A stretch of 64,000 nt of DNA from Octopus sinensis (Eukaryota): positions 158,844,001-158,908,000 of the forward strand of contig NC_042998.1 in NCBI RefSeq assembly GCF_006345805.1, written 5' to 3'. The first letter of the stretch is position 1, and every line of letters begins with the position of its first letter. The notes beneath the pieces were generated by a model that saw only the letters and a program-made list of their open reading frames with translations, made no database searches and was not told where the DNA came from. Positions 878 to 58,612 of this stretch are shown piece after piece. Both the position numbers and the translations under genes were made by a program.

Positions 878-1045
878 ATCACAAGTGTGCCTATATATAT
901 ACATATAAATAGTTGAAATTTATAGAAAAACAAAAGACAAAGACAGGTGTATGAACAAGAAGGTGTATTAGTTTGGCGCTCGAAAAAATGAAAAAGTCTT
1001 ATAAATAAGCAAGCTTCCTACCACACAGTCACTCTTACGCCTATA

Positions 1046-1320: not shown

Positions 1321-1410
1321 TATATAATAATAATAAATATTAGGGAATAAATCCAAATTTACAGGGAAAAAATCAGATTTAGGATTAAATCCAATTTTAT
1401 AGTAAAATAT

Positions 1411-1727
1411 TATATAATATTATTAGAGACAAAACCACTATTTTGCAAAACAAACAAGGAAAGACTTAATCAATACATAAAATTTTAATAAATAGTCAAA
1501 AAAACCGCCACTACAATCGTTTCTTGTCTTGATCGACAATCTTCAGGTGGACTTCCAATAAGTCAGTTTCAAATTATTTGAAACTGACTTATTGGAAGTC
1601 CACCTGAAGATTGTCGATCAAGACAAGAAACGATTGTAGTGGCGGTTTTTTTGACTATTTATTAAAATTTTATGTATTGATTAAGTCTTTCCTTGTTTGT
1701 TTTGCAAAATAGTGGTTTTGTCTCTAA

Positions 1728-1739
<12 letters not shown>
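1411..1739. repeat. Perfect 164-bp-arm palindrome, probably inverted PLE pseudo-LTRs
   Basis: 1411-1574 is the reverse complement of 1576-1739 around a single base at 1575; each arm has an HHR motif; (TA)n nearby on both sides. Confidence 0.9.
1600..1642 (+). ncRNA. Minimal type I hammerhead ribozyme (mirror copy 1508-1550 on -)
   Basis: ccac-CTGAAGA-ttgtc(gatcaa)gacaa-GAAA-cgattg-TA-gtgg: intact core, stems I and II, near-palindromic minimal stem III typical of PLE HHRs. Confidence 0.75.
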
Positions 1740-1775
<36 letters not shown>

Positions 1776-8906: not shown

Positions 8907-10170
8907 TATTTGTATAAATAATGCATTATTTTTTATACTGTTAATTTTCAAAATTAAGGTAAACAAAGTTCCTTTTTAAATCTAAAATATACTCTCCTTC
9001 ATTTTCTACAATGCTCTTCCATCTATCTGGTAGACTTGCAAGGCCCCTCTTCCAAAATTCATTTGTTCGTAATAAAAAATACTCCTCCAGTACTCTTCTG
9101 ACCTCGTCTACAGAATTCATATTTTTCCGTTCAAATGATTTTGGAGACTGCGGAATAAATAATAATCAGATGGGGCAATGTCCGGCGAATATGTCGGGTG
9201 GGGCATCGTTTCCCATTCAGACTGCTCCAGCCTCAGGAATGTTATCCTCGCTATATGTGGCCAAACATTATCCAGATGGAAGAACACGTTTCGTCATGAA
9301 ACCAAAGGTGGTCGTTTTTCTTCTAGAGCTGACTTAAGCCACTCAAACTACCTGCTGTAGATCTCGTTTGTTATCATTTGGTTGGGGTTTAAAAGTTCAA
9401 AGTGAACTAAACCTTTCATATCCCACCAAACAAATAACAAAACCTTACATGGGTGAAGACCTTCCTTAGCCTGCAATGCCGGTGTTTCTCTTTTCCCTAC
9501 CCACAGTCTTCGACATTTTCATAGAGAACCCATTTCTCGTCACCAGTGACTATTCGGTCCAAAAAAGGTTCATTCGTGAGATGTAACAGGAAAGAAGAGC
9601 ACACATTCACTCTCTGCTCGCTGCGATTAGACTCGGAAAGTTGTGAGGATCCATTGACCCAATTTGCTGACTTTTCCGATGACAGGCAGGTATCGATGAA
9701 TGACTGAATGACCAAATCCAAGCTTCTCTGCTAGTTCCTCAACAGCTACTATGGGATTTTGTTCTACCAAGGTTTGCAAGACGTCCTCATCGAGCTCTAC
9801 AGTTCTTCCAGGACGAGGCTCGTATTCTAGGCTGTAGTTTCCGGTTCGGAATTTCTGAAACCACCGTTGACATTGGCTTACGCTTATTGTCCGATACTCG
9901 CATACCGCATTAATAAGCCTCGCACTTTCCGTTGTGTCGGTACCTTCAATGAACTCAAAGTAAAATATGCCGAATATACTCCTTTGTTACTTCCATTAAA
10001 GCTTTGAAAAAAATAACTACTGAAATCAAACTGCACTCTTCAAAACTTGCACTAAGATTAAGTCCAAGGTAAAATTACAACGTGCTTTTATAGCTAGTTG
10101 ATGCAGGTAGTTTAACCCGTCTCCCTCCGACTTTTCATGCAACTGAAAAAACCGCATTATTTATGGGATA
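8907..10170 (-). mobile_element. Near full-length mariner transposon with pseudogenised transposase
   Basis: FLDRIVTGDEKWVLYEN on -; imperfect TIRs ATAAATAATGC.. (~8914) and ..GCATTATTTATGGGATA (~10170); ~1.26 kb. Confidence 0.85.
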
Positions 10171-15383: not shown

Positions 15384-16562
15384 ACTTATTAGATGATTGA
15401 AAGAGTCAGTGATTGATGATCAATGGATTGACTAATTGTTCCCGTCATTACGTTAGGAGGTTTTGATGGTTAACTTCTCGCGTGTCTTCCATATATTTTC
15501 TTAGACAACATCCCGAAAGTTCTATCAGTCATACTAGCTAATGATTTCTTGATTGATTGACCCATTACTGAGTGAATGAGAGATGGGAGAGTGAGTGAAT
15601 GAGTGAATGAGTGAGTGAGTGAGTGAGTGAATAATCAGGTGCTTCATTCGTTAGTTTAAGTGTCTTGTTTAACTTCAAATTGGCTCGGTTTGAGTAGATC
15701 TATGATCAAAACCATTCCAGCCATGATCATTACATCTACTTTTGTGGTACGGCACATTTTCTTTGATTTCTAGATAGAAGCAAATAGGAAATAACACTTA
15801 GTGACCTAAGTGAAAAAAAACAAAAATTTAATTTCTTACATAGTGTAATGAAAGGTGTTATATCCGTAACTGCACACCCTTTTCACATCCTTTATTTTTA
15901 AAAGCAATCGAGTGTGATTTGAGAGAAAATTGGTTGCTATTTCTAATAAATCAAATAACCCCATAAAGACTTCCTACTAGATTAATTTAGTAGTTTGCAG
16001 AGATTATAGGCCGCTGAAGGACGGGTGTAGAGCAAATGAATTAATTGTTCGTATCGTACACTAATGTTATTGATGCTTAATATTTGACCAAGTGCGGAGC
16101 CTTACCGTGCGCTGTTTTTCTTCGTTTACCATGTTTTCTATTTGCTGTTAATATTGCAGTATCGCTGTATATAATTACTAGTATTTTGCTATTTAGTGCA
16201 TGTGGTGTATGTTTCTGTTATTCTCTTTGGTCGCTGACATGAATGGAGACGGCGAATTTGGTAGGTGCTACTGTAAGTCTGTTACTTTGGAGACAGGTTT
16301 CTCCATGATTAAATTCATGAAGGTTGTGGTAGTGGTGGTGGTGGGAGCAGAGGCTTCATTACTGAGTGAAACAAATATAACTAATAAATAACTTGAATTG
16401 GGGAAAGAGCATATGATATCCATATGCAATCTAAGAGCGAGCCAATGAGGAGACACTAAGAAGGTGTTCAAACTGTTAGAAACAACAGGCAAACTTTGTG
16501 AAAAAATCTGTTTTTAAAAACGACGCAGCTTAATCTCAATTAAACAATGTTTCTATCTAGCT

Positions 16563-16604
<42 letters not shown>

Positions 16605-16608
<4 letters not shown>

Positions 16609-16817
16609 TCTTTTACTCTTTTACTTTTTTACTTGTTTCAGTCATTTGACTGTGGCCATGCTGGAGCACCGCTTTTAGTTGAACAATTCAACACCAGGAT
16701 TTACCAAATTCACTCAGAAGGCTTTGGTCGACTCGAAGTTATAGTAGAAGACACTTGCCCAACGTACCACGCAGTGGGACTGAACCCGGAACCATGTGGT
16801 TGGTAAGCAAGCTTCTT
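16605..16817 (-). mobile_element. OK-type SINE interrupted in its tRNA head; remainder at 18259-18292
   Basis: Head sequence resumes after a 1.44-kb insertion. Confidence 0.8.
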
Positions 16818-18258
16818 TATTTCTTTTAAATTGCCATAAAGGCATTACATAGAGGCGGACACTACAACATATGTGGAGACATATAACAAAAATAAAATAT
16901 GATGCTATGAATGACACATGAAAATGAACACGAAAAACATTAAAATCAAAATATTAAAATAATGATACATGAATGATAACTTGAGAAATAAGAATATGAA
17001 AAGTGTGTTATTCACCCCCACAATGAGTAACACCACTCGCCACTTAGATTTTGATTTAAACTTTCGTTTACCGTTTTCCCCATCGCTGAGTGACAACACT
17101 CTCTCCTCCATGTACACGTAACCTTTTTCACCGGGGAGGGGTCTTGGAAATTTTGTGGTGTCTGTTCTTTCTTCTTTTTTCCTGTGGGGGTGAAGGGGTG
17201 GGTGGGTTTGGTGTCTGTATGAGGAGGGTGGGTCTGAGTGGTCTTGGGTGGGATGGCTTTGATCTGGGGTCCCACATCACACTGACTGTTCTTCCTCTTC
17301 TTTCTCTTTTTCTTTTTATTCTGTCACTATCTGCACTTCTTCCTTTTTCTCCTCCGTCTCCACCACCGCTTCTTCTGTCGTTTTCCTTTGCAGATGGCAA
17401 TGCGCTCTAATGTAGCTCTTTTGGCCACATTTAAACATCGTTGGATTCTGCCCTCCACCCACACTCTTAACACAATCTCTCCCAACGTCACCGTCTCCGC
17501 TAAACTCATCAATCACCTCTCCCCTGCTTGTATAATGAGGTCCAGTATTTTCCTCTCCATCCTTCGTCCTCTGTTTCCGTGGCTTGAAGGGCAGCCATCT
17601 CCACCTCACTTCCAACGAGGACGGCTGCCGCAACCCAAACCACTTCTATATCGGGTGGAATCCCTTCTATCCTCACCTTAGAAGTCTTTCTTCCCAGGTA
17701 CGTGGGTAGAAGTACCACTTCCTCCGTTGTTATAGTTGCACTTACCAGTTTCTTTGCCTCTCTCGCTGTCCTAAACTGGACAACCACCGTCCCATATCCA
17801 TTTTCTTTCGCTATATATGTCATCTCCTTCGAAATCCCCTTCAATGCTTTTTCTACTTTTTCCATCTCCATCTGCTCCATCTTCCTACTCTCCACTGATT
17901 ACACATTGTAGGTAATGACCTTCTTTCCCATATTTTTCATAACCCTTTTGGCGGTAATACCTTTATGTCATCGCCCACCTTCTGTGTCATCTTACTCAGC
18001 TCCTTCAATCCGGCTAGGTCCATCTCCCTTTTCTTCACCTCTGCAGCCTCACAAAACTCTTTACTCTTTCCAAATACTCGTCCATTCTATTTATCGCCTT
18101 ATCAAGCTCCTCTTCCGCCGAAGGCAGCTCATACTCGCTAAGGTCTGAATACATTTTTCTACCGGTATAATATTCACTGACAAACCGCTGCCAAGTAGCA
18201 CAAAAAATTCCATCCGACTCGTCAAAAATTAACACAGCGAATAGAGCGACGCATGCGC
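16818..18258 (-). mobile_element. ORF1-only (HAL1-like) non-autonomous retroelement with 16-bp TSD
   Basis: GG(T/G)AAGCAAGCTTCTT at 16802-16817 and 18259-18274; single gag/ORF1-like frame, no RT; A-rich 3' end. Confidence 0.75.
17128..18154 (-). pseudogene. Disrupted L1/Tx1-type ORF1 (RRM-like region plus degenerate CCHC knuckle)
   Basis: GDDIKVLPP..VITYNV*SVESRK..YGTVVVQF..LPTYLGRK..LRVWVEGR..(C)FKCGQKSYIRAHC across frameshifts; collinear with the 43.5-kb ORF. Confidence 0.7.
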
Positions 18259-18400
18259 GGGAAGCAAGCTTCTTACCACACAGCCACTCCTGTATGTATG
18301 TATGTATGTATGTATGTATGTATGTATGCATGTATGTATGTGTGTGTGTATGTATGTATGTATGTATGCATATATGTATGTGTGTGTGTGTGTATGTATG

Positions 18401-18434
<34 letters not shown>

Positions 18435-18452
18435 TGTATGTATGTATGTATG

Positions 18453-19087
18453 TGAGACATGGACCCTTTACAAACGTCATGTAAGGGACCTTGAACGCTT
18501 TCATCAGAGATGTCTCGGACACATTCCGAATGTTGGCTGAACCTTAAAAAAGTTCAGATATACAGGTCCTGAGGACAGCTAATATCATGAGTATTGGGGC
18601 GATGGTGCACAAGCACCGGTTACGTTGGACTAGACACCTTAAGAGAATGAAGGATAGCAGGATCCCTAAGCAAATGCTATACGGGAAACTTGTGAATGGA
18701 AAGAGACCCCGGCAGAAACCAAGGCTGCGATTTAAGGATTGTGTCAAGTTCTCATTAAAGGCCTGTGATATGTAGGAGACTGACTGGGAGAGCAATGCCT
18801 GTCATCGCCACAGATGGAGGAAGCAGGTTAAGAAGGGAGTTCGGCACTTTTGAGAGAACACGTATTCTGCTTGAAGAACTTAAGCGTGCTGTTCGAAAAG
18901 CGCACTGCTGGTGTAGTGAATGGGGAAAGCTTGGTTTGCAATGTTTGCAGTCGTGCATGCTTGTCAAGAGCAGGGCTCATTAGCCATCAACAGTGCCGCA
19001 AATGCAAAACATAAGTTAGTCTTAGAGTGCACAATGTTCCTGAAGGTCAGCAATGGTCTTCTGCGGTCACGATTGGACGGCCATCAT
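18453..19087 (+). mobile_element. RTE LINE 3' fragment
   Basis: CETWTLYKRH..LERFHQRCL..RLRWTRHLKRMKDSRIPKQMLYGKL..RFKD. Confidence 0.85.
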
Positions 19088-22204: not shown

Positions 22205-24020
22205 AGAGTTTACGAAAAAGACAAAAGATGAAGGCAGGTGGTGTATAAAACAAACAGATGTATTAGTATAACGCTCAGAAAGAGAAAAAGTTTTTTACGT
22301 TTCGAACCTACGCTCTTCTACAGAAAGGGATACAGAAAAAACAAGGAGAGAAACAAGGAGAGTAAAAAATGTGTGTAGTGGCTAACGATCTATCATGGCG
22401 ACTAGTGCCGGACAGAAGGGTCAAACACGAGAAGGAAAGTAGGGGAGATAACAAGGTAAAGATGACCCCCAACAGAAAGGTGCGTGTGTGTATAAGAGAG
22501 TATGTATGTGCCTGTAAAAGAGGGCTGTGTGCGTGTATGTATGTGTAGGTGTGAAGATGTGGGGATGGCTGTGTGGGTGGTGTGTTGTGATGTGATGTTT
22601 AATGTTGTATGGTGTAGTGTGATGTTATTGGGATGTGGGGAGGTGAGAGTGAGGAAATTTCGGGTGGTGTGGGTTCGGCTGGTGGTTGGAGTAGATTTGG
22701 GGTTTGTGGCTAGGCAGAGGGTGGGGTATGTGGGGAAGGGGTGTGGTATAGGATGGGAGGATGGGAAGGATAGGGAAGTTGGTGTAGGGATGTGTAGGGG
22801 TGGGTGGGTTTATGGGGGAGGGGGAGGTGGGTATGTAAGGAGAGAGAGGAGGAGAGAAGAGAGAAAGAGAGTAAGGGAGAAGAGGGAAGGAGAGTAGGGT
22901 GAAAAGATGTAGGAGTGAAGAGAAGTAGGAGTCGGGGAGGAGGTTAGATGAAGAGGAGAGGAGAGTTGAGCCCAAATGGCGTAAAAGAGCGAAGAGAGAA
23001 GATTAATCCCTGTTCACGGCGCAAACGGGAGTCCGGATGGCCTCTGTGCAAGGACAATCCGAACACAGACAGGTGTTACAAGGAGTGACCGGTGGACCGG
23101 AAATGGCATGAGACTGGGGTGTCATTGCCGAGGCGGATGTCTCGGAGGTGTTCCGCGAACCGGTCAGCCAAGCGGCGTCCCGTTTGTCCGATGTACAGGG
23201 AATGGCAGACAGAGCAGGAGATGCAATAGATGATATTGCTGGAGGTGCAGGTGAAGGAATCGATGATGCGATAGGGTCGATGATGGGTGTCGGTGAGGAG
23301 GGTGGTGTTAGAGAGGTAAGGGCAAGTGCGACAGCGTGGGTGGGAGCAGGGGAACGAGCCAGGTTGGGAGGTAGGGTTGGGGAAGAAGCTGTGGACCAAG
23401 AGGTCTCGAAGGTTGTGGGCTCGTTTGAAGGAGGAGAGGGGTCGGTTAGGGAAGATGTGTGAAGATGTGTGAAGTGGACTGGAGATGCCGGAAAGCTCGG
23501 AGAATGGTACGTTGGAGAGGTAGGGTGGTGGGGTGGTAGGTGAGGGAAAAAGGGAGGCGGGAGACTGCAGAGCGGGTTCGGGGGGAGAGAGCAGATGCAC
23601 GGTCCACGAAACGTGCTCTGGCAAGGGCGGGGTGGGTAGTGGCGAGTGGATATCCAGGTAGGATGAAGTGGTGAGCCATGAGTTGATACTGAGTCTCAAT
23701 GTCATGGTCGTCACTACAGAGCCTGCGTAGACGGAGTAATTGTGAATAGGAGATGGAAAGCTTGGTGTATTTTGGGTAGGAGGAGGAGAAGTTTAGGTAT
23801 GAGTGTGAGTCTGTGTGGTAAGAGTTGGGTGATGAATGCTGACCGAAATGTCAAGAAAGGAAACAGCGGTGTCAGAGATAGTGCAGGAGAAGTGGAGGGC
23901 AGGATGGAAAGATTTGACGAAACAGAGAAAGGAGTCTAGATGTTCGCGGGAGAGTGAGGTGGCACCGATACAGTCGTCAATATAGCGGCCATATAGTTCG
24001 GGAGTGGGACCAGTGAAACT
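22203..24020 (-). mobile_element. Penelope-like element, 5'-truncated (RT C-term, GIY-YIG, pseudo-LTR)
   Basis: YGRYIDDCIG (RT motif C), FLDI, CSHPRCRTC linker, NIIYCISCSVCHSLYIGQTGRRLADRFAEH. Confidence 0.92.
23076..23714 (-). pseudogene. PLE linker plus GIY-YIG endonuclease fragment
   Basis: 212-aa ORF with IY..C..C...YIGQT.R....R..EH; frameshifted relative to RT. Confidence 0.85.
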
Positions 24021-24519: not shown

Positions 24520-25225
24520 AAAATGTTTCAAAAAAGTTTCGAGAAATAAAGTTTCAAAGTTCGACAGGACAACGATATCAATGGTGACACAGAATCATCT
24601 TGGAAGGCTCTGCGTGATGCAACGCACCCCGCGTCTATAGAGGCTCCTGGACTTTGTGTTTGTAAATATCAAGATTACTTCAGCGCTAAGAACACAGATG
24701 TCCAACAACTCATAGATAAAATGTACAGCTCTCACAAAACAGAATAATGATAAGTGCTCATCCAAAAAAGAGAATGCCAACAAGAAATACAGCGGCCAGG
24801 TCCAAAGTACTCTGAGACAGATGAATGAATCTTGGTGGTCTTTTAAGGCTATTGAGTTCAAAGAAACTGCTAACAGAAAGGATTCTAAAGTCTTTTGTGA
24901 AGGCCTCAAGAAAGTGTATGGCCTTCAAGAGCGCGGTGTTACTCTTATTTTTTCATCGAATAGAGTGACACTGTTACCTGACAAATCTAACATCCTGAAA
25001 CGATTGAAAGATCACTTCGAAGCCGTGTTGAACTCCATCTCACTCACTAATGATGACGTCATAATGTTTATTCCACAGCACGCCGAAATACTTGTCTCTG
25101 GAGCCAACCTTTTAGAAGTGGTAAACTCTATTAAACAGATGCCTTCTGGTAAAGCGCCTGGCAAGGGTGCTGTCCCTCTTGAAATCTACAAACATGGTGG
25201 ATAGAAGCATTTTAAGAAACTGCAA
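24520..25225 (+). mobile_element. RTE LINE internal fragment
   Basis: WWSFKAIE..DSKVFCEGLKKVYG..SIKQMPSGKAPG..LEIYKHGG. Confidence 0.8.
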
Positions 25226-28832: not shown

Positions 28833-28890
<58 letters not shown>

Positions 28891-28899
28891 CATATGTTC

Positions 28900-29105
28900 T
28901 TTTTTCTTTTATTTGTTTCAGTCATCATTTGACTGCGGCCATGCTGGACCACCGCACATTAGTCGAACAAATCGACCCTAGGACTTATTCCTTGTAAGCC
29001 TAGTTCTTATTCTATGGTTCTCTTATGCCGAACCGCTAGGTTACGGGAACGTAGTCACGCCACCATCAGTTGTCAAGCGATGGTGGGGGACAAACACAGA
29101 CACAC
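28900..29105 (-). mobile_element. OK-type SINE 3' half
   Basis: TTTCAGTCA..GACTGCGGCCATGCTGG...GTCAAGCGATGGTGGGG family sequence. Confidence 0.75.
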
Positions 29106-41833: not shown

Positions 41834-42150
41834 TAGCGTAGGTCTGTGGTCTATCTCTGGGTGAAAAAGGTTGCTGCTGGAAGGAAATATGTGTGGCAGC
41901 AGGATTTACTCTTTGCCATACCTGCGAAAAAATCAGATTGGTTGTCGGAGAATTTCTCCGACTTCACCAGCACCAATTTCTGGCCTCCTCCTTACACTAA
42001 TTGTAATCCCATGGATTACTATGTGTGGGGCGTGGTTGAGAAAATATACATACTGTCCTACCTTCCCACAAAGGCCGAGCTGGTGACCAAATCAAGGAGG
42101 TATTCGGCGATCTTCCTAGAGGCACAGTCAGAAACGCATGCACAAGTTTC
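41834..42150 (+). mobile_element. maT/DD37D-like transposase fragment, truncated by the HHR repeat
   Basis: WVKKVAAGRKYVWQQD..FWPP..NCNPMDYYVWGVVE..VRNACTSF; same family as 11320-12180. Confidence 0.8.
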
Positions 42151-42393
42151 AGTAGCGACACTTGCTGGGTCTGACTACGCTGCATTGATAAAGGGCAACA
42201 ACCCTGAAACATGTCTGCAGATGTCTGACCAGCAAGGTGAAGCGGCTGACCTCCCCTGTTCGAAGATTGTAATGGACGCAGGTTCGTGTGTCATATAGCT
42301 AGCTAGAGGCGATGGTCTCTTGGAGCTAATCAGCGACAGCTTTAGTCTTATATTTATGGACTGCCATATTAGTTTGGCGATAAATATTAATAT
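42147..42393 (+). repeat. 247-bp HHR-bearing direct repeat, copy 1
   Basis: Near-identical to 46513-46759 (offset 4366). Confidence 0.92.
42180..42220 (+). ncRNA. Type I hammerhead ribozyme, U3-A8 core variant
   Basis: ctgca-TTGATAA-aggg(caacaa)ccct-GAAA-catg-TC-tgcag; stem I extends via 42161-42171 with 42227-42236. Confidence 0.7.
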
Positions 42394-42521
42394 CCAGGAA
42401 CGCTGTCGTAATCTCCTTTAGAGAGACTTAGTAATTTTAATATATCTGTTATTGAAAACAAGTGGATGTATTCCACGGAAACTAAGTAAATAAAATCTTC
42501 GAACAGACAGTCAGTAGTGAC

Positions 42522-43360
42522 GGCGTGGTGAAGTTTTTTAGATTTTTTCTCGAAAATGGAATCCCAGACGTATGCGGGTGCAGCAGGCAAGGGCCTGGTT
42601 GCAAACGAATTGCAGTTAGAAGAAGTCATCGTCGAGAAGGAGACGTTGAACAAGTATTTCGTTAGCTTGAAGAAGGAGGGTGTTCCCCGACGAGACGCGT
42701 CTCAGAGTCGTGGTGGAGGGGAGACCCCCAGTGTGTCACAAATGCAAAATAAGAGGCCACATGAAGGATGTGTGTCCGCTGAGAGAAATACAGGAGAAAA
42801 CGATAGCACTGGAGACTTCAACGAATGAGTTGCAAGATGCGTGTGAGGAGGAGGGAGAAATCGTTCCTACAGATAATGCGGAAAGTGGTAAAGAGTTGGA
42901 GAAAGAAAATAGAAAAAGAACGCTGGTGGAATCACCACCTAAAGAACAAAAAAAGAAGAAGAAAAAAGCGAAAAACAAGATTACTGACGAGAAGGAAAAC
43001 CGAACGGGAGAAGAGGATACAAAAGCAGAAGTGAGTGAGCCGGTTAAAACCAACAATAGAGGAAGAATGGATGAGAAATTTGGCAGAGCAGTTGAAAGCT
43101 CGTAAGAGAGGAGGAAGACCCAAGGGAAAGAAACACAGAGTGGTAATGTTATACGACAAGGACAAAAATATGGAAAAGATGTTGCCAGGTAGGAAAGACT
43201 TAATTAGAGTAAATTGTAAAATTGTAATTTAAATGAAACTGCGAGCTTTGGGGGGCTCGTAAGCCGTTCCATCTAATCCATTTCAATTCATAATTTTCGA
43301 TTTTTTTACTTTATGTACCCCACGTCCTCTTAATTCGGGCCTTAGTGCCTATAATAAAGA
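42522..43360 (+). mobile_element. ORF1-only retroelement unit 1 (5'-truncated, internal deletion, intact CCHC)
   Basis: ATG 42556 MESQTYAGAAG; deletion join at ~42680; CHKCKIRGHMKDVC; ends AATAAAGA. Confidence 0.8.
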
Positions 43361-43375
43361 TTTCAGTAGCGACAC

Positions 43376-44837
43376 CCGCTTGTTTTTGTTTTTGGTGACG
43401 GAGATTTCTGATTGCGTTATTTGTGTAGCTGTATTTTTTTGGCGGCGGAAAAATTTTGACTACGTTATTGTGGTGGCGCGTTTCGTGAGATCGAATCCGG
43501 CGGTGGAAGTTGTTACGGCGTGAAAAATTTTATTGAGATTTTTTTCTCGAAAATGGAAAGCCAGACGTATGCGGGTGCAGCAGGCAAGGGCCTGGTTGCA
43601 AACGAATTGCAGTTAGAAGAAGTCATCGTCGAGAAGGAGACGTTGAACAAGTATTTCGACAGCTTGAAGAAGGAGGGTGACTGTGTGAAGGTCACACCAC
43701 CAGAAGAAGCGGAAGAAGCGGAGAAACGGATTATAACGTACAAAACATGGAGCGTGACTTCGAAAAAAATAGAAGTGGCACCGATAGAGGAAGTTGAATG
43801 CTGTCTTAAAGGAATAGAAGGAGAGTCTACCTACTATAACAGAGGTAGAAAGTTCGCAACAGTGGTCGTCCACTTTAAAAGTGAAGACGAGGCGAAGAAG
43901 AACGCAACGAAAATTTTAAAAACTGATAGATGGATGTTTACCAAGCTACTGCGGGAAAAGGGCAGTCAGAATAAGAATAAGCAAGATTTCGCCCGAACTA
44001 AATATGGAAAGGATTTTAGCAGCAGTGGTGTTTAATTGCAAGGAAAACGTGGAAATGTTGAAAGTCGAAAAATCAAAAGATGTAAGTGGTGGGGTTATGC
44101 AGTGCAGGCGTTAGTCCACATTACAATGCCTGACCTGTATAACATCCCGGAGGAGTTGGTGTTCCCCGACGAGACACGTCTCAGAGTCGTGGTGGAGAGG
44201 AGACCCCCAGTATATCACAAATGCAAAATAAGAGGCCACATGAAGGATGTGTGTCCGCTGAGAGAAGTACAGGAGAAAACGATAGCACTGGAGACTTCAA
44301 CGAATGAGTTGCAAGATGCGTGTGAGGAGGAGGGAGAAATCGTTCCTACAGATAATGCGGAAAGTGGTAAAGAGTTGGAGAAAGAAAATAGAAAAAGAAC
44401 GCTGGTGGAATCACCACCTAAAGAACAAAAAAAGAAGAAGAAAAAAGCGAAAAACAAGATTACTGACGAGAAGGAAAACCGAACGGGAGAAGAGGATACA
44501 AAAGCAGAAGTGAGTGAGCCGGTAAAACCAACAATAGAGGAAGAATGGATGAGAAATTTGGCAGAGCAGTTGAAAGCTCGTAAGAGAGGAGGAAGACCCA
44601 AGGGAAAGAAACACAGAGTGGTAATGTTATACGACAAGGACAAAAATATGGAAAAGATGTTGCCAGGTAGGAAAGACTTAATTAGAGTAAATTGTAAATT
44701 GTAATTTAAATGAAACTGCGAGCTTTGGGGGGCTCGTAAGCCGTTCCATCTAATCCATTTCAATTCATAATTTTCGATTTTTTTACTTTATGTACCCCAC
44801 GTCCTCTTAATTCGGGCCTTAGTGCCTATAATAAAGA
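43376..44837 (+). mobile_element. ORF1-only retroelement unit 2
   Basis: 1477-bp period with unit 3; bounded by TTTCAGTAGCGACAC at 43361 and 44838. Confidence 0.85.
43553..44704 (+). pseudogene. Frameshifted ORF1/gag-like protein (RRM-like, zinc knuckle C->Y, Lys/Glu-rich tail)
   Basis: Frameshifts at ~43938 and ~44083; YHKCKIRGHMKDVC; KKKKKK basic tract. Confidence 0.75.
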
Positions 44838-44852
44838 TTTCAGTAGCGACAC

Positions 44853-46512
44853 CCGCTTGTTTTTGTTTTTGGTGACGGAGATTTCTGATTGCGTTATTTG
44901 TGTAGCTGTATTTTTTTGGCGGCGGAAAAATTTTGACTACGTTATTGTGGTGGCGCGTTTCGTGAGATCGAATCCGGCGGTGGAAGTTGTTACGGCGTGA
45001 AAAATTTTATTGAGATTTTTTTCTCGAAAATGGAAAGCCAGACGTATGCGGGTGCAGCAGGCAAGGGCCTGGTTGCAAACGAATTGCAGTTAGAAGAAGT
45101 CATCGTCGAGAAGGAGACGTTGAACAAGTATTTCGACAGCTTGAAGAAGGAGGGTGACTGTGTGAAGGTCACACCACCAGAAGAAGCGGAAGAAGCGGAG
45201 AAACGGATTATAACGTACAAAACATGGAGCGTGACTTCGAAAAAAATAGAAGTGGCACCGATAGAGGAAGTTGAATGCTGTCTTAAAGGAATAGAAGGAG
45301 AGTCTACCTACTATAACAGAGGTAGAAAGTTCGCAACAGTGGTCGTCCACTTTAAAAGTGAAGACGAGGCGAAGAAGAACGCAACGAAAATTTTAAAAAC
45401 TGATAGATGGATGTTTACCAAGCTACTGCGGGAAAAGGGCAGTCAGAATAAGAATAAGCAAGATTTCGCCCGAACTAAATATGGAAAGGATTTTAGCAGC
45501 AGTGGTGTTTAATTGCAAGGAAAACGTGGAAATGTTGAAAGTCGAAAAATCAAAAGATGTAAAGTGGTGGGGTTATGCAGTGCAGGCGTTAGTCCACATT
45601 ACAATGCCTGACCTGTATAACATCCCGGAGGAGTTGGTGTTCCCCGACGAGACACGTCTCAGAGTCGTGGTGGAGAGGAGACCCCCAGTATATCACAAAT
45701 GCAAAATAAGAGGCCACATGAAGGATGTGTGTCCGCTGAGAGAAGTACAGGAGAAAACGATAGCACTGCAGACTTCAACGAATGAGTGGTGAAGAGTTGG
45801 AGAAAGAAAATAGAAAAAGAACGCTGGTGGAATCACCACCTAAAGAACAAAAAAAGAAGAAAAAAAAAGCGAAAAATAAGATTACTGACGAGAAGGAAAA
45901 CCGGACGGGAGAAGAGGATACAAAAGCAGAAGTGAGTGAACAGCTAAAAGCAGTTGAAGAATGGGACAGAAAATTGAAACAGCAGTTGAAAGCTTGTAAG
46001 AGAGGAGGAGGACCCAAGGGAAAGAAACACAGAGTGGTAATGTTATACGACAAGGACGAAAATTTAGAAAAGATGTTGCCAGGTAGGAAAGACTTAATTA
46101 GAGTAAAGTTGACCCCAGGAATATTTGATAAATATTGGAAGGCGGTAATCGTGGAAAAAGAGTCAGTGAAGAAAATGATTGAATATGAAGCATTTGAATG
46201 GTTATATTTACGTTATGACACCTTACCAGCTGATGTGAATCAGGATGGCCTGATGGAGTATATAACAGATGAAAGACCAGACTATACAGAGTGCCCGACG
46301 TAGCAGAGTAATATATGTATTTGTAAAATTGTAAATTGTAAAATTGTAATTTAAATGAAACTGCGAGCTTTGGGGGGCTCGTAAGCCGTTCCATCTAATC
46401 CATTATAAATATCCATTTCAATTCATAATTTTCGATTTTTTTACTTTATGTACCCCACGTCCTGTCTTGTAATGTCCCCTCTTAATTCGGGCCTTAGTGC
46501 CTATAATAAAGA
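44853..46512 (+). mobile_element. ORF1-only retroelement unit 3 (complete 3' end)
   Basis: Bounded by TTTCAGTAGCGACAC at 44838 and 46513; 3' UTR hairpin and AATAAAGA; no RT or endonuclease. Confidence 0.85.
45030..46303 (+). pseudogene. ORF1/gag-like protein, reconstructed length ~440 aa
   Basis: Frameshift at ~45418 and 56-bp deletion at ~45787 relative to unit 2; ends ..DERPDYTECPT*. Confidence 0.75.
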
Positions 46513-46759
46513 TTTCAGTAGCGACACCTGCTGGGTCTGACTACGCTGCATTGATAAAGGGCAACAACCCTGAAACATGTCTGCAGATGTCTGACCAGCA
46601 AGGTGAAGCAGCTGACCTCCCCTGTTCGAAGGTTGTAATGGACGCAGGTTCGTGTGTCACATAGCTAGCTAGAGGCGGTGGCCTCTTGGAGCTAATCAGC
46701 GACAGCTTTAGTCTTATATTTATGGACTGCCATATTAGTTTGGCGATAAATATTAATAT
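46513..46759 (+). repeat. 247-bp HHR-bearing direct repeat, copy 2 (HHR 46546-46586)
   Basis: Same TTGATAA/GAAA core; ends in (TA)n like PLE 3' ends. Confidence 0.92.
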
Positions 46760-55599: not shown

Positions 55600-57200
55600 T
55601 GAGTGGTACCCTCTAAGTGTAGACTTGTGAGTCGGAGAAACGGAATTGGGGAGGGTACTTGTCCCTCTATCGACGAGTGTGTGTAGTTGGTTGCGATTGT
55701 GATGGTTGGCGCGTGTTGGTTGGTGCGTGTTGCGATTGTGATGGTTGGTGGAGATGTGATTTAAGATATGTATTGCTTGATCCTGGTGTTATAGATGTGT
55801 TCTATTTGTAGGGAAAAGCCGCTAGTGACGAGTGCTTCATTATAATATGGTGCTTGATTATTGATAATTTCCTCAGTGAAGGAGAGGTCGGATATGCGGG
55901 TTGAGATGTACTTGAGTTATCGAAAGTGGATTTGAGGTGATTGGAGTGGATGTTAAGGTATCTGAGATATTGGTTAGGTTTGTGGTAAGGTTTTCGAATG
56001 TGATAGATAGAATTTGGTTAGAGAATAATTTATGTAGATCCTTTCTAGTTCTTTCTGAGGAGGATTTATTTATGCTTTTGGAAACTAATAAAGCGTCGTC
56101 CCTGAATAGGCCTCCCTTGATGTTAGGGAAATGTATATGGAGCTGATGTAGTATATTTAGTCCAACTAAGTCAGTGACCTGAGCTGAATCAGATGATCCC
56201 ATGGTTATGTCGAATAGGTTGCTATGGTTATTGCCTGGCACCTGAGTTTGCTTTCAAAAGAAATAACGGTTTAGTGGGCATTAAGTATTATGTTAATTTC
56301 TAGTAGAGTTAGGTTAGTAAGGTTCCTAGCTAGCAGAAGAGCTTGATTAAGAAGTTTAGGAGAAATAGAAGAGTACTAATTATTTATGTCGAATTGTAGG
56401 AAGGAATTTGAGTTTGGGGTTTTTAGAAGGTGGAACCATGTAATAACTTCACCTGTGTGAGACCATAGGTTAACATTTAATTTGTCCTTGACGATTGGTA
56501 TTATTTTGTCCAAAATATTTTCCTATGTCAAATTTGGTGGGACATATTAGGGGCATTGAAGTTTTGGTAATAAAGTCCTTGTTGTGATCCTTGAAGTTAA
56601 AGTGTGGTGATGCAGGGCAGTATGGTTCGGCTCGGTCATCTACTTGTAATTTCCTCATAAGTTTGCAGTGGTTGGTGTTGATTTCATTTAGGGCAGATGT
56701 TGGTGCCAGCTTGTAGGATTTGTCGAGTTCTTTCTTTATGAATTTATTATATTCCTCAATGGTATTGGGATACATAATTCCTGTTTTATCCGAGAAGACA
56801 TGTAATTTGGGGAATGCAATTATCCATTTTATGGTGTTCGAGAGCTTTTTTTGAAAGGGGAATTTGTATTTAGAGAATTTAATGTTTCCAATTAAATTAA
56901 TCATATCTGCTTCAAATTCTTCGATACGGGAGCTGTGTGGAGGGTTCTTATATGATTTGACGTTGTAGCTGTTGGTATTATTGTCAGCTCTGCATTTTTG
57001 ATTGTCGTGAAATACAGCTTTCCATCTCATTCTTCGGATGAGGTCCTTAGTTTTGGTAAGGAGGATTAAAAGGAAAGTCTTTTGTGAAGGAATAGTTGTG
57101 TCCTTAAGAGAAATGCCAAGGAATAGTTTATCCATTACTGAAGCTTTACCTGAGATAAGTGTTTATAATAGCGAGAAATGGTGGTTATGAGAGGTAATGA
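55600..57200 (-). mobile_element. Penelope-like RT pseudogene (second PLE lineage)
   Basis: LIRRMRWKAVFH, SDKTG, FNFKDH, LFDITMGSSDSAQVTDLVGL, GLFRDDALL (RT motifs B and C). Confidence 0.8.
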
Positions 57201-57499: not shown

Positions 57500-58580
57500 A
57501 TTACTATCATTATTATTTTTTTCTTTCTTCAAATTTTCTTCCATTTCTCGCCGAGTGTTTTCTGTACACCTAGGGCAGAGAAGCTCATTGTATGCATTCC
57601 CAGATTACACACACAAATTCAGAGGTAAAATATGCATTTAAAAAAAAATTAATAAATGAATAAAATCATGAATGGATGTTGTTTTCACAGCGATAATGCT
57701 CTTCTCACTACATGAGTCGTTCCAGTTTACACGGTATCATTTTCAAATAGGGCGACGAGCTGGCAGAAACGTTAGCACGCCGGAAGAAATGCTTAGCAGT
57801 ATTTTGTCTCTCGCTACGTTCTGAGTTCAAATTCTGCCGAGGTCGACTTTGCCTTTCATCCTTTCTGGGTCGATTAAATAAGTACCAGCTACGCACTGGG
57901 GTCGATATAATCGACTTAATCCGTTTTTCTGTCTTTGTTTGTCCTCTCTGTGTTTAGCCCCTTGTGGGTAGTAAAGAAATTGGTATAATTTTCAAATAGG
58001 TTTCAGTACCTTTTTTTTTTATCATTCCTAGAGATCCTACAATCACTGGTACTGTAGTCGTCTTCAGATGCCACATTTTTTTCAATTTCTATCAGCAAGT
58101 CTTTATATTTACTGATCTTGTCAAATTCTTTCGCCGCTATATTGTGATCTCAAGGAATACACATGTCAATTAATAAACACACCTTTTTTTCTGATCTTTT
58201 ATAATATCCGGTTTATTAGCTTTTATAGTTTTGTCGGTTGTACGGGGAAGTCCCAGAGAATCGACAGCATTTTCTCATTCAGTCGCAGTTTTAGGGTGGT
58301 GTTTATACCATTTGTCAGCGGTTTTGATTTTATAATGCCGACATATTGTCCAGTGTAGATACTGGCCGACTCTGTCATGTCTTGCTTTATATTCTACAGG
58401 TGCTAAGACTCTACACCCTGAGATTAGGTGGTCTATAGTTTCAATCTCAACGTTACAGAATCGGCATTTTGGGTCAGCTCCATTTTTTATCACATTGGTT
58501 TGGTAGTTCCTGGTTAATAAGCTTTGATCATAAGCTGCTAATATGAAACCTTCGCTCTCTGCTTTTAGCCCTGAGCTTCG
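57500..58580 (-). mobile_element. R4/Dong-like LINE 3' part (CCHC and RLE), interrupted by a SINE
   Basis: GLKAESEGFILAAYDQSL..CRFC..ETIDHLISGC..YKARHDRVG..LHW; (TAA)n-like sequence at both ends. Confidence 0.85.
57751..57981 (+). mobile_element. Full-length Nin-SINE with 19-bp TSD
   Basis: GGTAT(C/A)ATTTTCAAATAGG at 57733-57751 and 57982-58000. Confidence 0.9.
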
Positions 58581-58612
58581 TATTATTATTATCGTTCTTG
58601 TTGTTATTATTT

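What the first reader, a model, noticed from the sequence alone, without database searches (positions are those of the whole stretch)
16802..18274. Diverged second ORF1-only element, inserted with a 16-bp TSD into a SINE tRNA head
Seen: 1441-bp minus-strand insert between GG(T/G)AAGCAAGCTTCTT copies, splitting an OK-type SINE. Its broken ORF aligns block by block with the 43.5-kb protein (GDDIKVLPP/GDCVKVTPP; VITYNV*SVES/IITYKTWSVTS; YGTVVVQF/FATVVVHF; LPTYLGRK/LPSYCGKR; LRVWVEGR/LRVVVEGR; CxxC-x4-x-x4-C) though the DNA is very different. The TSD bounds an element too short to hold an RT. Inference: an old, diversified family of non-autonomous ORF1-only retrotransposons; both subfamilies here sit in structured-RNA repeats.
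Basis: partly seen in the sequence, partly recalled or inferred. Interest (0 to 1): 0.7.

Follow-up and report, generated by a model that had tools for sequence, protein, structure and literature searches.

The report
Octopus ORF1-only jumping element
A 1.44-kb decayed insertion, flanked by a 16-bp target duplication inside a short repeat, encodes only an RNA-binding ORF1-type protein and likely belongs to a multi-copy octopus retrotransposon family that borrows its reverse transcriptase, a known kind of element that our literature searches did not find described in cephalopods.

Summary
Observation confirmed. A 1,441-bp minus-strand insert (16818-18258) with a 16-bp TSD (15/16 identical) splits a SINE head. 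Its broken ORF aligns with the 43-46 kb protein (82/231 identical; score 248 against a shuffled maximum of 58), with synonymous sites saturated. A profile search found 452 relatives; one is a named Octopus bimaculoides protein, and two are 80% and 75% identical to this element, so it is a multi-copy subfamily. Models give two RRM-fold domains before a CCHC knuckle (type I LINE ORF1, Tx1/L1-like). Both elements run ORF1, short 3' UTR, AATAAAGA, target duplication, with similar 3' tails and no room for ORF2. This is the HAL1/HeT-A/Ag-Sponge kind of non-autonomous LINE, likely mobilised in trans by Octopus L1-Tx1 elements. Not shown: that the two lineages share one ORF1-only ancestor (they sit in separate subclades and could derive from different autonomous parents), the Tx1 assignment (no RT), and targeting of SINE heads (one site, in a very abundant repeat). 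No DNA of other copies was reachable. New member of a known kind; moderate interest.

The parts
16802..16817 (.). Target-site duplication, 3' side of the element (one substitution against the SINE majority base)
18259..18274 (.). Target-site duplication, 5' side of the element
16818..18258 (-). Element A, 1,441 bp; no LTRs or terminal inverted repeats
18161..18258 (-). 5' untranslated leader (98 nt); no significant match to the leader of element B (59 of 1000 shuffles reach the score)
17130..18160 (-). Broken ORF1 from ATG 18160; frameshifts near 18051, 17945, 17550, 17433 and 17322, stops near 17900 and 17513; colinear with library proteins P0004 (129/161 identical) and P0072 (138/183)
17450..17920 (-). 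Two tandem RRM-fold domains (predicted; second one partly beyond the modelled stretch)
   Evidence: model pLDDT 89.6; Foldseek rows are nearly all tandem-RRM proteins, best E 1.1e-3; homolog model best E 1.4e-4; Pfam RRM_3 E 0.028
17397..17440 (-). Single CCHC zinc knuckle, decayed in this copy
   Evidence: zf-CCHC in 11 of 150 relatives at E<=0.001
17130..17396 (-). Lys/Glu-rich then Pro/Thr-rich C-terminal region; the C-terminal domain of other subfamilies is not detected
16818..17129 (-). End of ORF and T-rich 3' UTR; last ~95 nt resemble the 3' end of element B; junction reads AATAAAGA; no poly(A) tract, no ORF2 remnant found
18275..18293 (-). 5' piece of the host SINE head (A-box side, by eye)
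16705..16801 (-). 3' piece of the host SINE (B-box side and body)
44853..46512 (+). Element B, most complete copy (1,660 bp): ATG 45030, stop 46301-46303, 209-nt 3' UTR ending AATAAAGA; two further, internally deleted copies at about 42513-43360 and 43376-44837; each followed by the same 15-mer

Best explanation
This is a dead copy of a multi-copy octopus element that encodes only an ORF1-type protein, predicted to have two RRMs and a zinc knuckle, and that was likely inserted by target-primed reverse transcription using the endonuclease and reverse transcriptase of an autonomous L1/Tx1-type LINE acting in trans. Shown: TSD-bounded 1.44-kb unit, one ORF, no ORF2, close relatives elsewhere, coding constraint between lineages. 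Inferred steps: (1) a master copy is transcribed from its own leader; (2) its ORF1p coats its RNA and may co-assemble with helper ORF1p, which would explain selection to keep the ORF; (3) helper ORF2p recognises the conserved ~95-nt 3' tail; (4) it nicks the bottom strand at 5'-CTTCTT/A-3', and the RNA end (AAUAAAGA) pairs with 3-4 T-rich bases to prime; (5) the second nick 16 nt away gives the TSD. The SINE head is most simply an abundant repeat that carries a suitable T-rich/A nick site. The copy then gained about five frameshifts and two stops.
For: TSD and empty-site match. Protein homology A/B far beyond shuffles. In 122 aligned codons identity is 68, 70 and 42 at positions 1, 2, 3; pS 0.78 (saturated), pN 0.43, bootstrap pS-pN above 0 in 500 of 500 (the blocks were picked by protein alignment, which favours low pN). 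452 relatives at E<=0.001, 123 at 1e-10; one of the 4 proteins listed is named Octopus bimaculoides. Same-subfamily copies P0004 and P0072. Two-RRM fold; Atlas neighbours of relative P0005 are CCHC proteins (0.93) and ZCCHC3-RBD proteins (0.90). RRM plus CCHC is type I ORF1, tied to the Tx1 clade in non-mammalian animals (PMC5203782, passages). Two independent loci in one window share the ORF1-UTR-AATAAAGA-duplication plan, while 146 open frames of the window yield no APE endonuclease or RT core hit. The 3' UTRs of A and B align to their very ends (score 51; 1 of 1000 shuffles reaches it). No endonuclease or RT family among the 25 of 30 Pfam families shown for 150 relatives. A relative at 45% identity (P0034) also ends soon after the Pro/Thr region without the C-terminal domain. 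O. vulgaris has 80 L1-Tx1 families, 13 recently active (PMC13282606).
Against: No DNA of any other copy was seen (the one genome-contig scan found none), so ORF1-only structure is shown for 2 loci only. The no-RT census is weak: ORF1 and ORF2 are separate frames, and the median hit is 152 aa. Against real window DNA the last 70 nt of A score best on low-complexity stretches; B's tail ranks 7th of 12,715 windows. No Pfam family reaches its cut-off for A or B; Foldseek E for A's own model is above 0.001; two word-index searches found nothing. Type I ORF1s also occur in I, Jockey, R1, Tad1, L2 and CR1 elements (PMC4120745, passages), so the helper clade is not fixed. No helper with a matching tail was found: the only RT-associated hit in the window is R4/Dong-like.
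Confidence: 0.75

Rival explanations
1. One-off deletion: an autonomous Tx1-type LINE lost ORF2 during or after insertion at this site; there is no ORF1-only family.
For: All library relatives could be ORF1s of the 80 L1-Tx1 families of Octopus. Colinearity with P0072 is shown only to 17133, leaving 315 nt in which a junction could hide. Element B copies show local deletions.
Against: Two unrelated loci in 64 kb both lack all of ORF2 yet keep ORF1 and the tail, and no Tx1-type ORF2 piece was found in the window; LINE decay normally leaves 3' ORF2 pieces, not ORF1 (established knowledge). The short C-terminus is shared with P0034 at 45% identity.
Confidence: 0.12
2. Retrocopies of a domesticated ORF1-derived host gene family (L1TD1- or ZCCHC3-like in kind), inserted by LINE machinery.
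For: Single ORF, UTRs, AATAAA near the end, TSD, purifying selection; Atlas likeness to ZCCHC3 domains.
Against: Hundreds of clusters at under 50% identity, mostly fragments; pieces are spliced into unrelated gene models (C2H2 array, WD40, LDLa, astacin), as expected of dispersed repeats; no poly(A) tract; three copies in tandem at locus B.
Confidence: 0.06
3. ORF1-only element as in the best reading, but derived from and mobilised by a clade other than L1/Tx1 (I, Jockey, Nimb, L2 or CR1 group).
For: Type I ORF1 is widespread; top Atlas clusters are mostly arthropod, one with PRE_C2HC on 14% of members at score 0.83.
Against: Jockey-group ORF1s carry three knuckles, this family one; a 16-bp TSD at a T-rich/A nick with an AATAAA end fits L1/Tx1 (recalled knowledge); L2/CR1 usually end in tandem repeats (recalled).
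Confidence: 0.07
4. Add-on to the best reading: subfamily A is sequence-specific for this site of the SINE or tRNA head.
For: Tx1-clade elements often prefer multicopy targets, including other transposons and small-RNA genes (PMC4494074, passages). Element B copies are each followed by the same 15-mer. A second SINE head at 1007-1034 is also cut inside the same 16-mer.
Against: One site only; 3 of the 4 SINE heads with the 16-mer in the window are empty; SINEs are 11.6% of the O. vulgaris genome; A and B targets share only AAG(A); B2 and B3 are identical over 719 nt with a shared frameshift, so the tandem may be local duplication.
Confidence: 0.3

Closest known systems
ORF1-present non-autonomous LINEs: HAL1 (L1 clade), HeT-A (Jockey), Ag-Sponge (CR1) (PMC5786205, passages)
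   Same: One ORF1-type protein, no RT, LINE-type ends, expected mobilisation in trans; ORF1p is proposed there to multimerise with the helper's protein.
   Different: Two RRMs plus one CCHC rather than the mammalian type II ORF1 of HAL1; short (1.4-1.7 kb), no poly(A) tract, not telomeric; cephalopod host; parent not identified. That passage names no Tx1-derived or molluscan example.
Tx1-clade non-LTR retrotransposons (Tx1, Keno, Kibi, Koshi, Tx1-Mar; PMC4494074, passages)
   Same: Type I ORF1 plan; insertion into multicopy repeats; TSD; clade abundant and recently active in O. vulgaris.
   Different: No ORF2, so the RT that defines the clade is absent; no direct comparison with a named Tx1 ORF1 could be made; many relatives carry a C-terminal domain with no Pfam match.
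Dictyostelium TRE5-A.2 (recalled, no call)
   Same: L1-related, keeps ORF1, lacks a working ORF2, moved in trans.
   Different: Targets upstream of tRNA genes by protein contact; coexists with a near-identical autonomous parent, which is not shown here.

Membership tests
ORF1-present non-autonomous LINE (HAL1/HeT-A/Ag-Sponge kind) | Encodes an ORF1p-type protein and nothing else | tested here: met
   for this copy; for element B
ORF1-present non-autonomous LINE (HAL1/HeT-A/Ag-Sponge kind) | Non-LTR ends: TSD, no LTR or TIR | tested here: met
ORF1-present non-autonomous LINE (HAL1/HeT-A/Ag-Sponge kind) | Amplified as a family | tested here: met
   Protein level only: P0004 80%, P0072 75%, P0045 63% identical; tree support 100/98 for A+P0004+P0045
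ORF1-present non-autonomous LINE (HAL1/HeT-A/Ag-Sponge kind) | Other copies share the same ORF2-less structure | not testable with these tools
   No eukaryotic genome collection; one search found no locus
ORF1-present non-autonomous LINE (HAL1/HeT-A/Ag-Sponge kind) | 5' and 3' parts traceable to an autonomous LINE | tested here: inconclusive
   Only the window could be searched: the tail profile finds A and the three B copies and nothing else below E 0.9
HAL1 in the strict sense | Type II (Transposase_22) ORF1 of mammalian L1 | tested here: not met
   No Transposase_22 among families shown for A, B or 150 relatives; two RRMs plus CCHC instead
Tx1 clade | RT phylogeny | not testable with these tools
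   Element has no RT
Tx1 clade | Type I ORF1 (RRM immediately before CCHC) | tested here: met
   feature is not exclusive to Tx1
Tx1 clade | Target-sequence preference | tested here: inconclusive
   One site for A; 1 of 4 SINE sites occupied
Gag-only LTR element (TRIM/LARD type) | Long terminal repeats and a 4-6 bp TSD (recalled definition) | tested here: not met
   no terminal repeat inside the insert; TSD is 16 bp
Host repeat as 'OK' SINE | Sequence match to the published OK consensus | not testable with these tools
   No SINE library; PMC8967140 (passages) names tRNA-Core and tRNA-Deu as the main octopus SINEs

The most novel reading that the evidence does not exclude
Octopus genomes host an ancient radiation of RT-less, ORF1-only retroelements: dozens of lineages as distant as 25-40% in protein identity that descend from one ORF2 loss, keep ORF1p and a shared 3' tail under selection, parasitise Tx1 LINEs, and each prefer a transcribed small-RNA repeat (SINE head, hammerhead repeat) as a safe target.
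Probability: 0.2. Interest if true: 0.7.

Novelty: new member of a known kind. Interest (0 to 1): 0.42.

Why it matters
ORF1-only LINE derivatives are listed from three clades (L1, Jockey, CR1). A Tx1-like, cephalopod set would be a further independent origin and lets one test why a parasite of a LINE keeps ORF1p when SINEs need none. Because such elements have no RT, repeat pipelines likely leave them unclassified (15% of O. vulgaris is 'unknown' repeat), and their pieces appear inside unrelated gene models, including a C2H2 zinc-finger array. If the whole radiation proved monophyletic and RT-less it would be an unusually old and diverse case. As one dead copy it has no likely function of its own.

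Tried and rejected
Word-index protein searches with pieces of A and B found nothing; PDB sequence search with B found nothing, and with the family profile only knuckle matches. Rfam and ARAGORN: no RNA family or tRNA; weak Rfam hits are microsatellites. Source look-up of the relatives could not be made, so the species range is unknown beyond the one named protein. Genome contigs: no locus. Metagenome and viral contigs stayed unchecked. A zf-RVT hit at 58278-58610 looked like a possible helper, but it is an R4/Dong-like end by its motifs (recalled) and shares no tail with A or B. 5' leaders of A and B are not significantly alike. A first codon comparison was out of frame and discarded (redone); a global tail control was swamped by self-matches and redone. 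The wide fold search gave generic ferredoxin-like rows (best Z 8.5) and did not test the C-terminal domain. Pol III read-through from the SINE head was considered as a promoter and rejected by inference: the insert puts 1.45 kb and T-runs between the A and B boxes. LTR and DNA-transposon readings rejected. Bao and Jurka 2010 on HAL1 was not held. Literature searches for an octopus or Tx1 ORF1-only element returned none describing it; Repbase and Dfam entries, subscription papers and the O. vulgaris repeat library could not be seen and may hold it.

Full report
Observation. The insert spans 16818-18258 on the minus strand, 1,441 bp, between 16-mers at 16802-16817 and 18259-18274 that differ at one base. 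The flanks, with the insert removed, match three uninterrupted SINE copies in the window at 74-86% identity, each with one copy of the 16-mer. The repeat is therefore a target-site duplication and the host is a split SINE head in the same orientation. The label 'OK' could not be tested. There are no LTRs or terminal inverted repeats.

Coding content. A frameshift-aware alignment of the insert to the protein of the 43-46 kb element (element B) gives 82 identities in 231 columns, score 248, against 60 shuffles with mean 41 and maximum 58. DNA similarity is slight (no blastn hit at E<1; local score 70, reached by 2 of 200 shuffles). In 122 gap-free codons identity by position is 68, 70 and 42; pS is 0.78 and pN 0.43. 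So the two ORFs diverged long ago as working genes; the blocks were chosen by protein alignment, which biases pN down.

The family. A profile of window pieces found 452 cluster representatives at E<=0.001 among 1.84 billion; the best 150 were examined. P0011 is a UniRef protein of Octopus bimaculoides; the other sources are unknown, so 'octopus' for the window is an inference from this and from repeat content. P0004 matches A from its first ATG (18160) at 129 of 161 residues and P0072 matches down to 17133 at 138 of 183: A is one decayed copy of a subfamily, with about five frameshifts and two stops. A tree of A, B and the 37 of 152 library proteins that covered at least 140 core positions puts A with P0004 and P0045 (100/98) in a clade (99/98) apart from the clade holding B (100/99) (midpoint root, no known Tx1 ORF1 included, three long rows). 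Four hits are gene models that join ORF1 pieces to C2H2, WD40, LDLa or astacin domains, as expected of a dispersed repeat. No endonuclease or RT family appears among the 25 of 30 Pfam families shown for the 150; this is weak, since the median hit is 152 aa and ORF2 is a separate frame.

Protein type. The model of A's core (152 aa, pLDDT 89.6) and of P0011 show two beta-alpha-beta-beta-alpha-beta domains; Foldseek returns tandem-RRM proteins (best E 1.1e-3 for A, 1.4e-4 for P0011). One CCHC knuckle follows (zf-CCHC in 11 of 150). Atlas neighbours of P0005 include CCHC and ZCCHC3-RBD clusters at 0.90-0.93. This is type I ORF1, linked to Tx1 in non-mammalian animals (PMC5203782, passages) but also found in I, Jockey, R1, Tad1, L2 and CR1 elements (PMC4120745, passages). 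Many relatives, and weakly B (E 0.033), end in a C-terminal domain of about 85 aa with no Pfam match; A and P0034 do not show it.

No ORF2. After 17130 only 312 nt remain before the TSD. Element B has the same plan: ORF 45030-46303, 209-nt UTR, AATAAAGA, then a 15-mer that follows each of three tandem copies. The 3' UTRs of A and B align right up to both ends (1 of 1000 shuffles reaches the score), but against real window DNA the last 70 nt rank B's tail 7th of 12,715 windows, behind low-complexity stretches; the homology is likely, not proven. In both elements the last bases, AAG(A), are shared with the target, which fits priming by microhomology at a T-rich/A nick (inference from two junctions). 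Pfam on 146 open frames of the window (144 of the 249 frames passing the filter, plus two from A and B) found no APE endonuclease or RT core; the one zf-RVT hit is an R4/Dong-like end. Two ORF1-plus-tail loci and no Tx1-type ORF2 piece in 64 kb is the reverse of what 5'-truncating LINEs leave behind, which is the main argument against one-off deletions.

Mechanism. Most likely (0.75) this is an ORF1-present non-autonomous LINE. A master copy is transcribed, its ORF1p binds its RNA and perhaps co-assembles with helper ORF1p (proposed for this class in PMC5786205, passages), helper ORF2p recognises the tail and performs target-primed reverse transcription. Helpers exist in the genus: O. vulgaris has 80 L1-Tx1 families, 13 recently active with 421 insertions over 2.29 Mb (PMC13282606, first third of the text and a supplement search). 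Every step after the anatomy is inferred.

What is not shown. HAL1 arose several times independently (PMC5753468, passages), and the selection seen between A and B could have acted inside autonomous parents. I put about even odds on the two. Targeting is open: Tx1 elements often prefer multicopy targets (PMC4494074, passages) and a second SINE head at 1007-1034 breaks inside the same 16-mer, but A gives one site, 3 of 4 such sites in the window are empty, and SINEs are 11.6% of the O. vulgaris genome. B's host does hold a type I hammerhead-like motif in a repeat whose size fits animal retrozymes of 170-400 nt (PMC7229834, passages), so the phrase 'structured-RNA repeats' is fair as description, but the two targets share only 3-4 nt.

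Comparison and novelty. It works like HAL1, HeT-A (PMC5537684, passages) and Ag-Sponge. It is not HAL1 in the strict sense, and Tx1 membership cannot be tested without an RT. Eight literature searches showed no report of such an element in octopus or from Tx1; of the papers opened, PMC9115989, PMC8967140, PMC4758252, PMC3747384 and 10.64898/2026.07.22.740005 were seen as passages only. Repbase, Dfam and the O. vulgaris library were not visible and may already hold these repeats. Verdict: new member of a known kind, interest 0.42; the boldest open reading (one ancient RT-less radiation with small-RNA-repeat targets) has probability about 0.2 and would merit 0.7.

Noticed in passing
window 42147-42393 and 46513-46759 (cores at 42185 and 46551, + strand): A 247-bp duplicate (97.6% identical) around element B holds a type I hammerhead-like motif with a compensatory U3-A8 pair in place of C3-G8 (numbering recalled) and a palindromic stem III; a degenerate copy of the junction motif at 42511 suggests a ~362-bp unit, retrozyme- or Penelope-like. 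Self-cleavage untested; Rfam did not call it.
   Followed up: partly
window 1407-1744: Near-perfect 339-bp inverted repeat with a canonical-core hammerhead-like motif on each arm (1604 +, 1546 -); likely an inverted Penelope-type terminal repeat.
   Followed up: no
window 1007-1034: A second SINE head ends inside the same 16-mer that A duplicated and is followed by unrelated sequence; may mark a fragile or preferred site.
   Followed up: partly
window 42513-46512: The three B copies are mosaics: B2 and B3 are identical over 719 nt with a shared frameshift, B1 and B2 share a C-terminal deletion and 3' UTR deletions; local duplication or assembly artefact is possible.
   Followed up: partly
library proteins P0002, P0006, P0011, P0036, P0037, P0039, P0087, P0105, P0111: Shared C-terminal domain of about 85 aa with no Pfam match; modelled at moderate confidence only; fold not tested alone.
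   Followed up: partly
window 58000-58610 (-): C-terminal piece of an R4/Dong-like element (zf-RVT E 1.9e-4; translation; clade call from recalled motifs).
   Followed up: partly
window 9630-9986 (-) and 41837-42120 (+): Mariner/Tc1 remnants: Mos1-type HTH (E 6.7e-11) and a DDE-like stretch just left of B's host (by eye).
   Followed up: no
window 23000-23850 (-), 55870-57160 (-), 18450-18980 (+), 24716-25204 (+): Frames that read like Penelope-type RT/GIY-YIG and RTE-type LINE remnants by eye; no Pfam hit at E<=0.001.
   Followed up: no
window 16554-16703: The host SINE's body runs into the tail of another repeat family (81% to 28833-28987): a chimeric or nested SINE.
   Followed up: no
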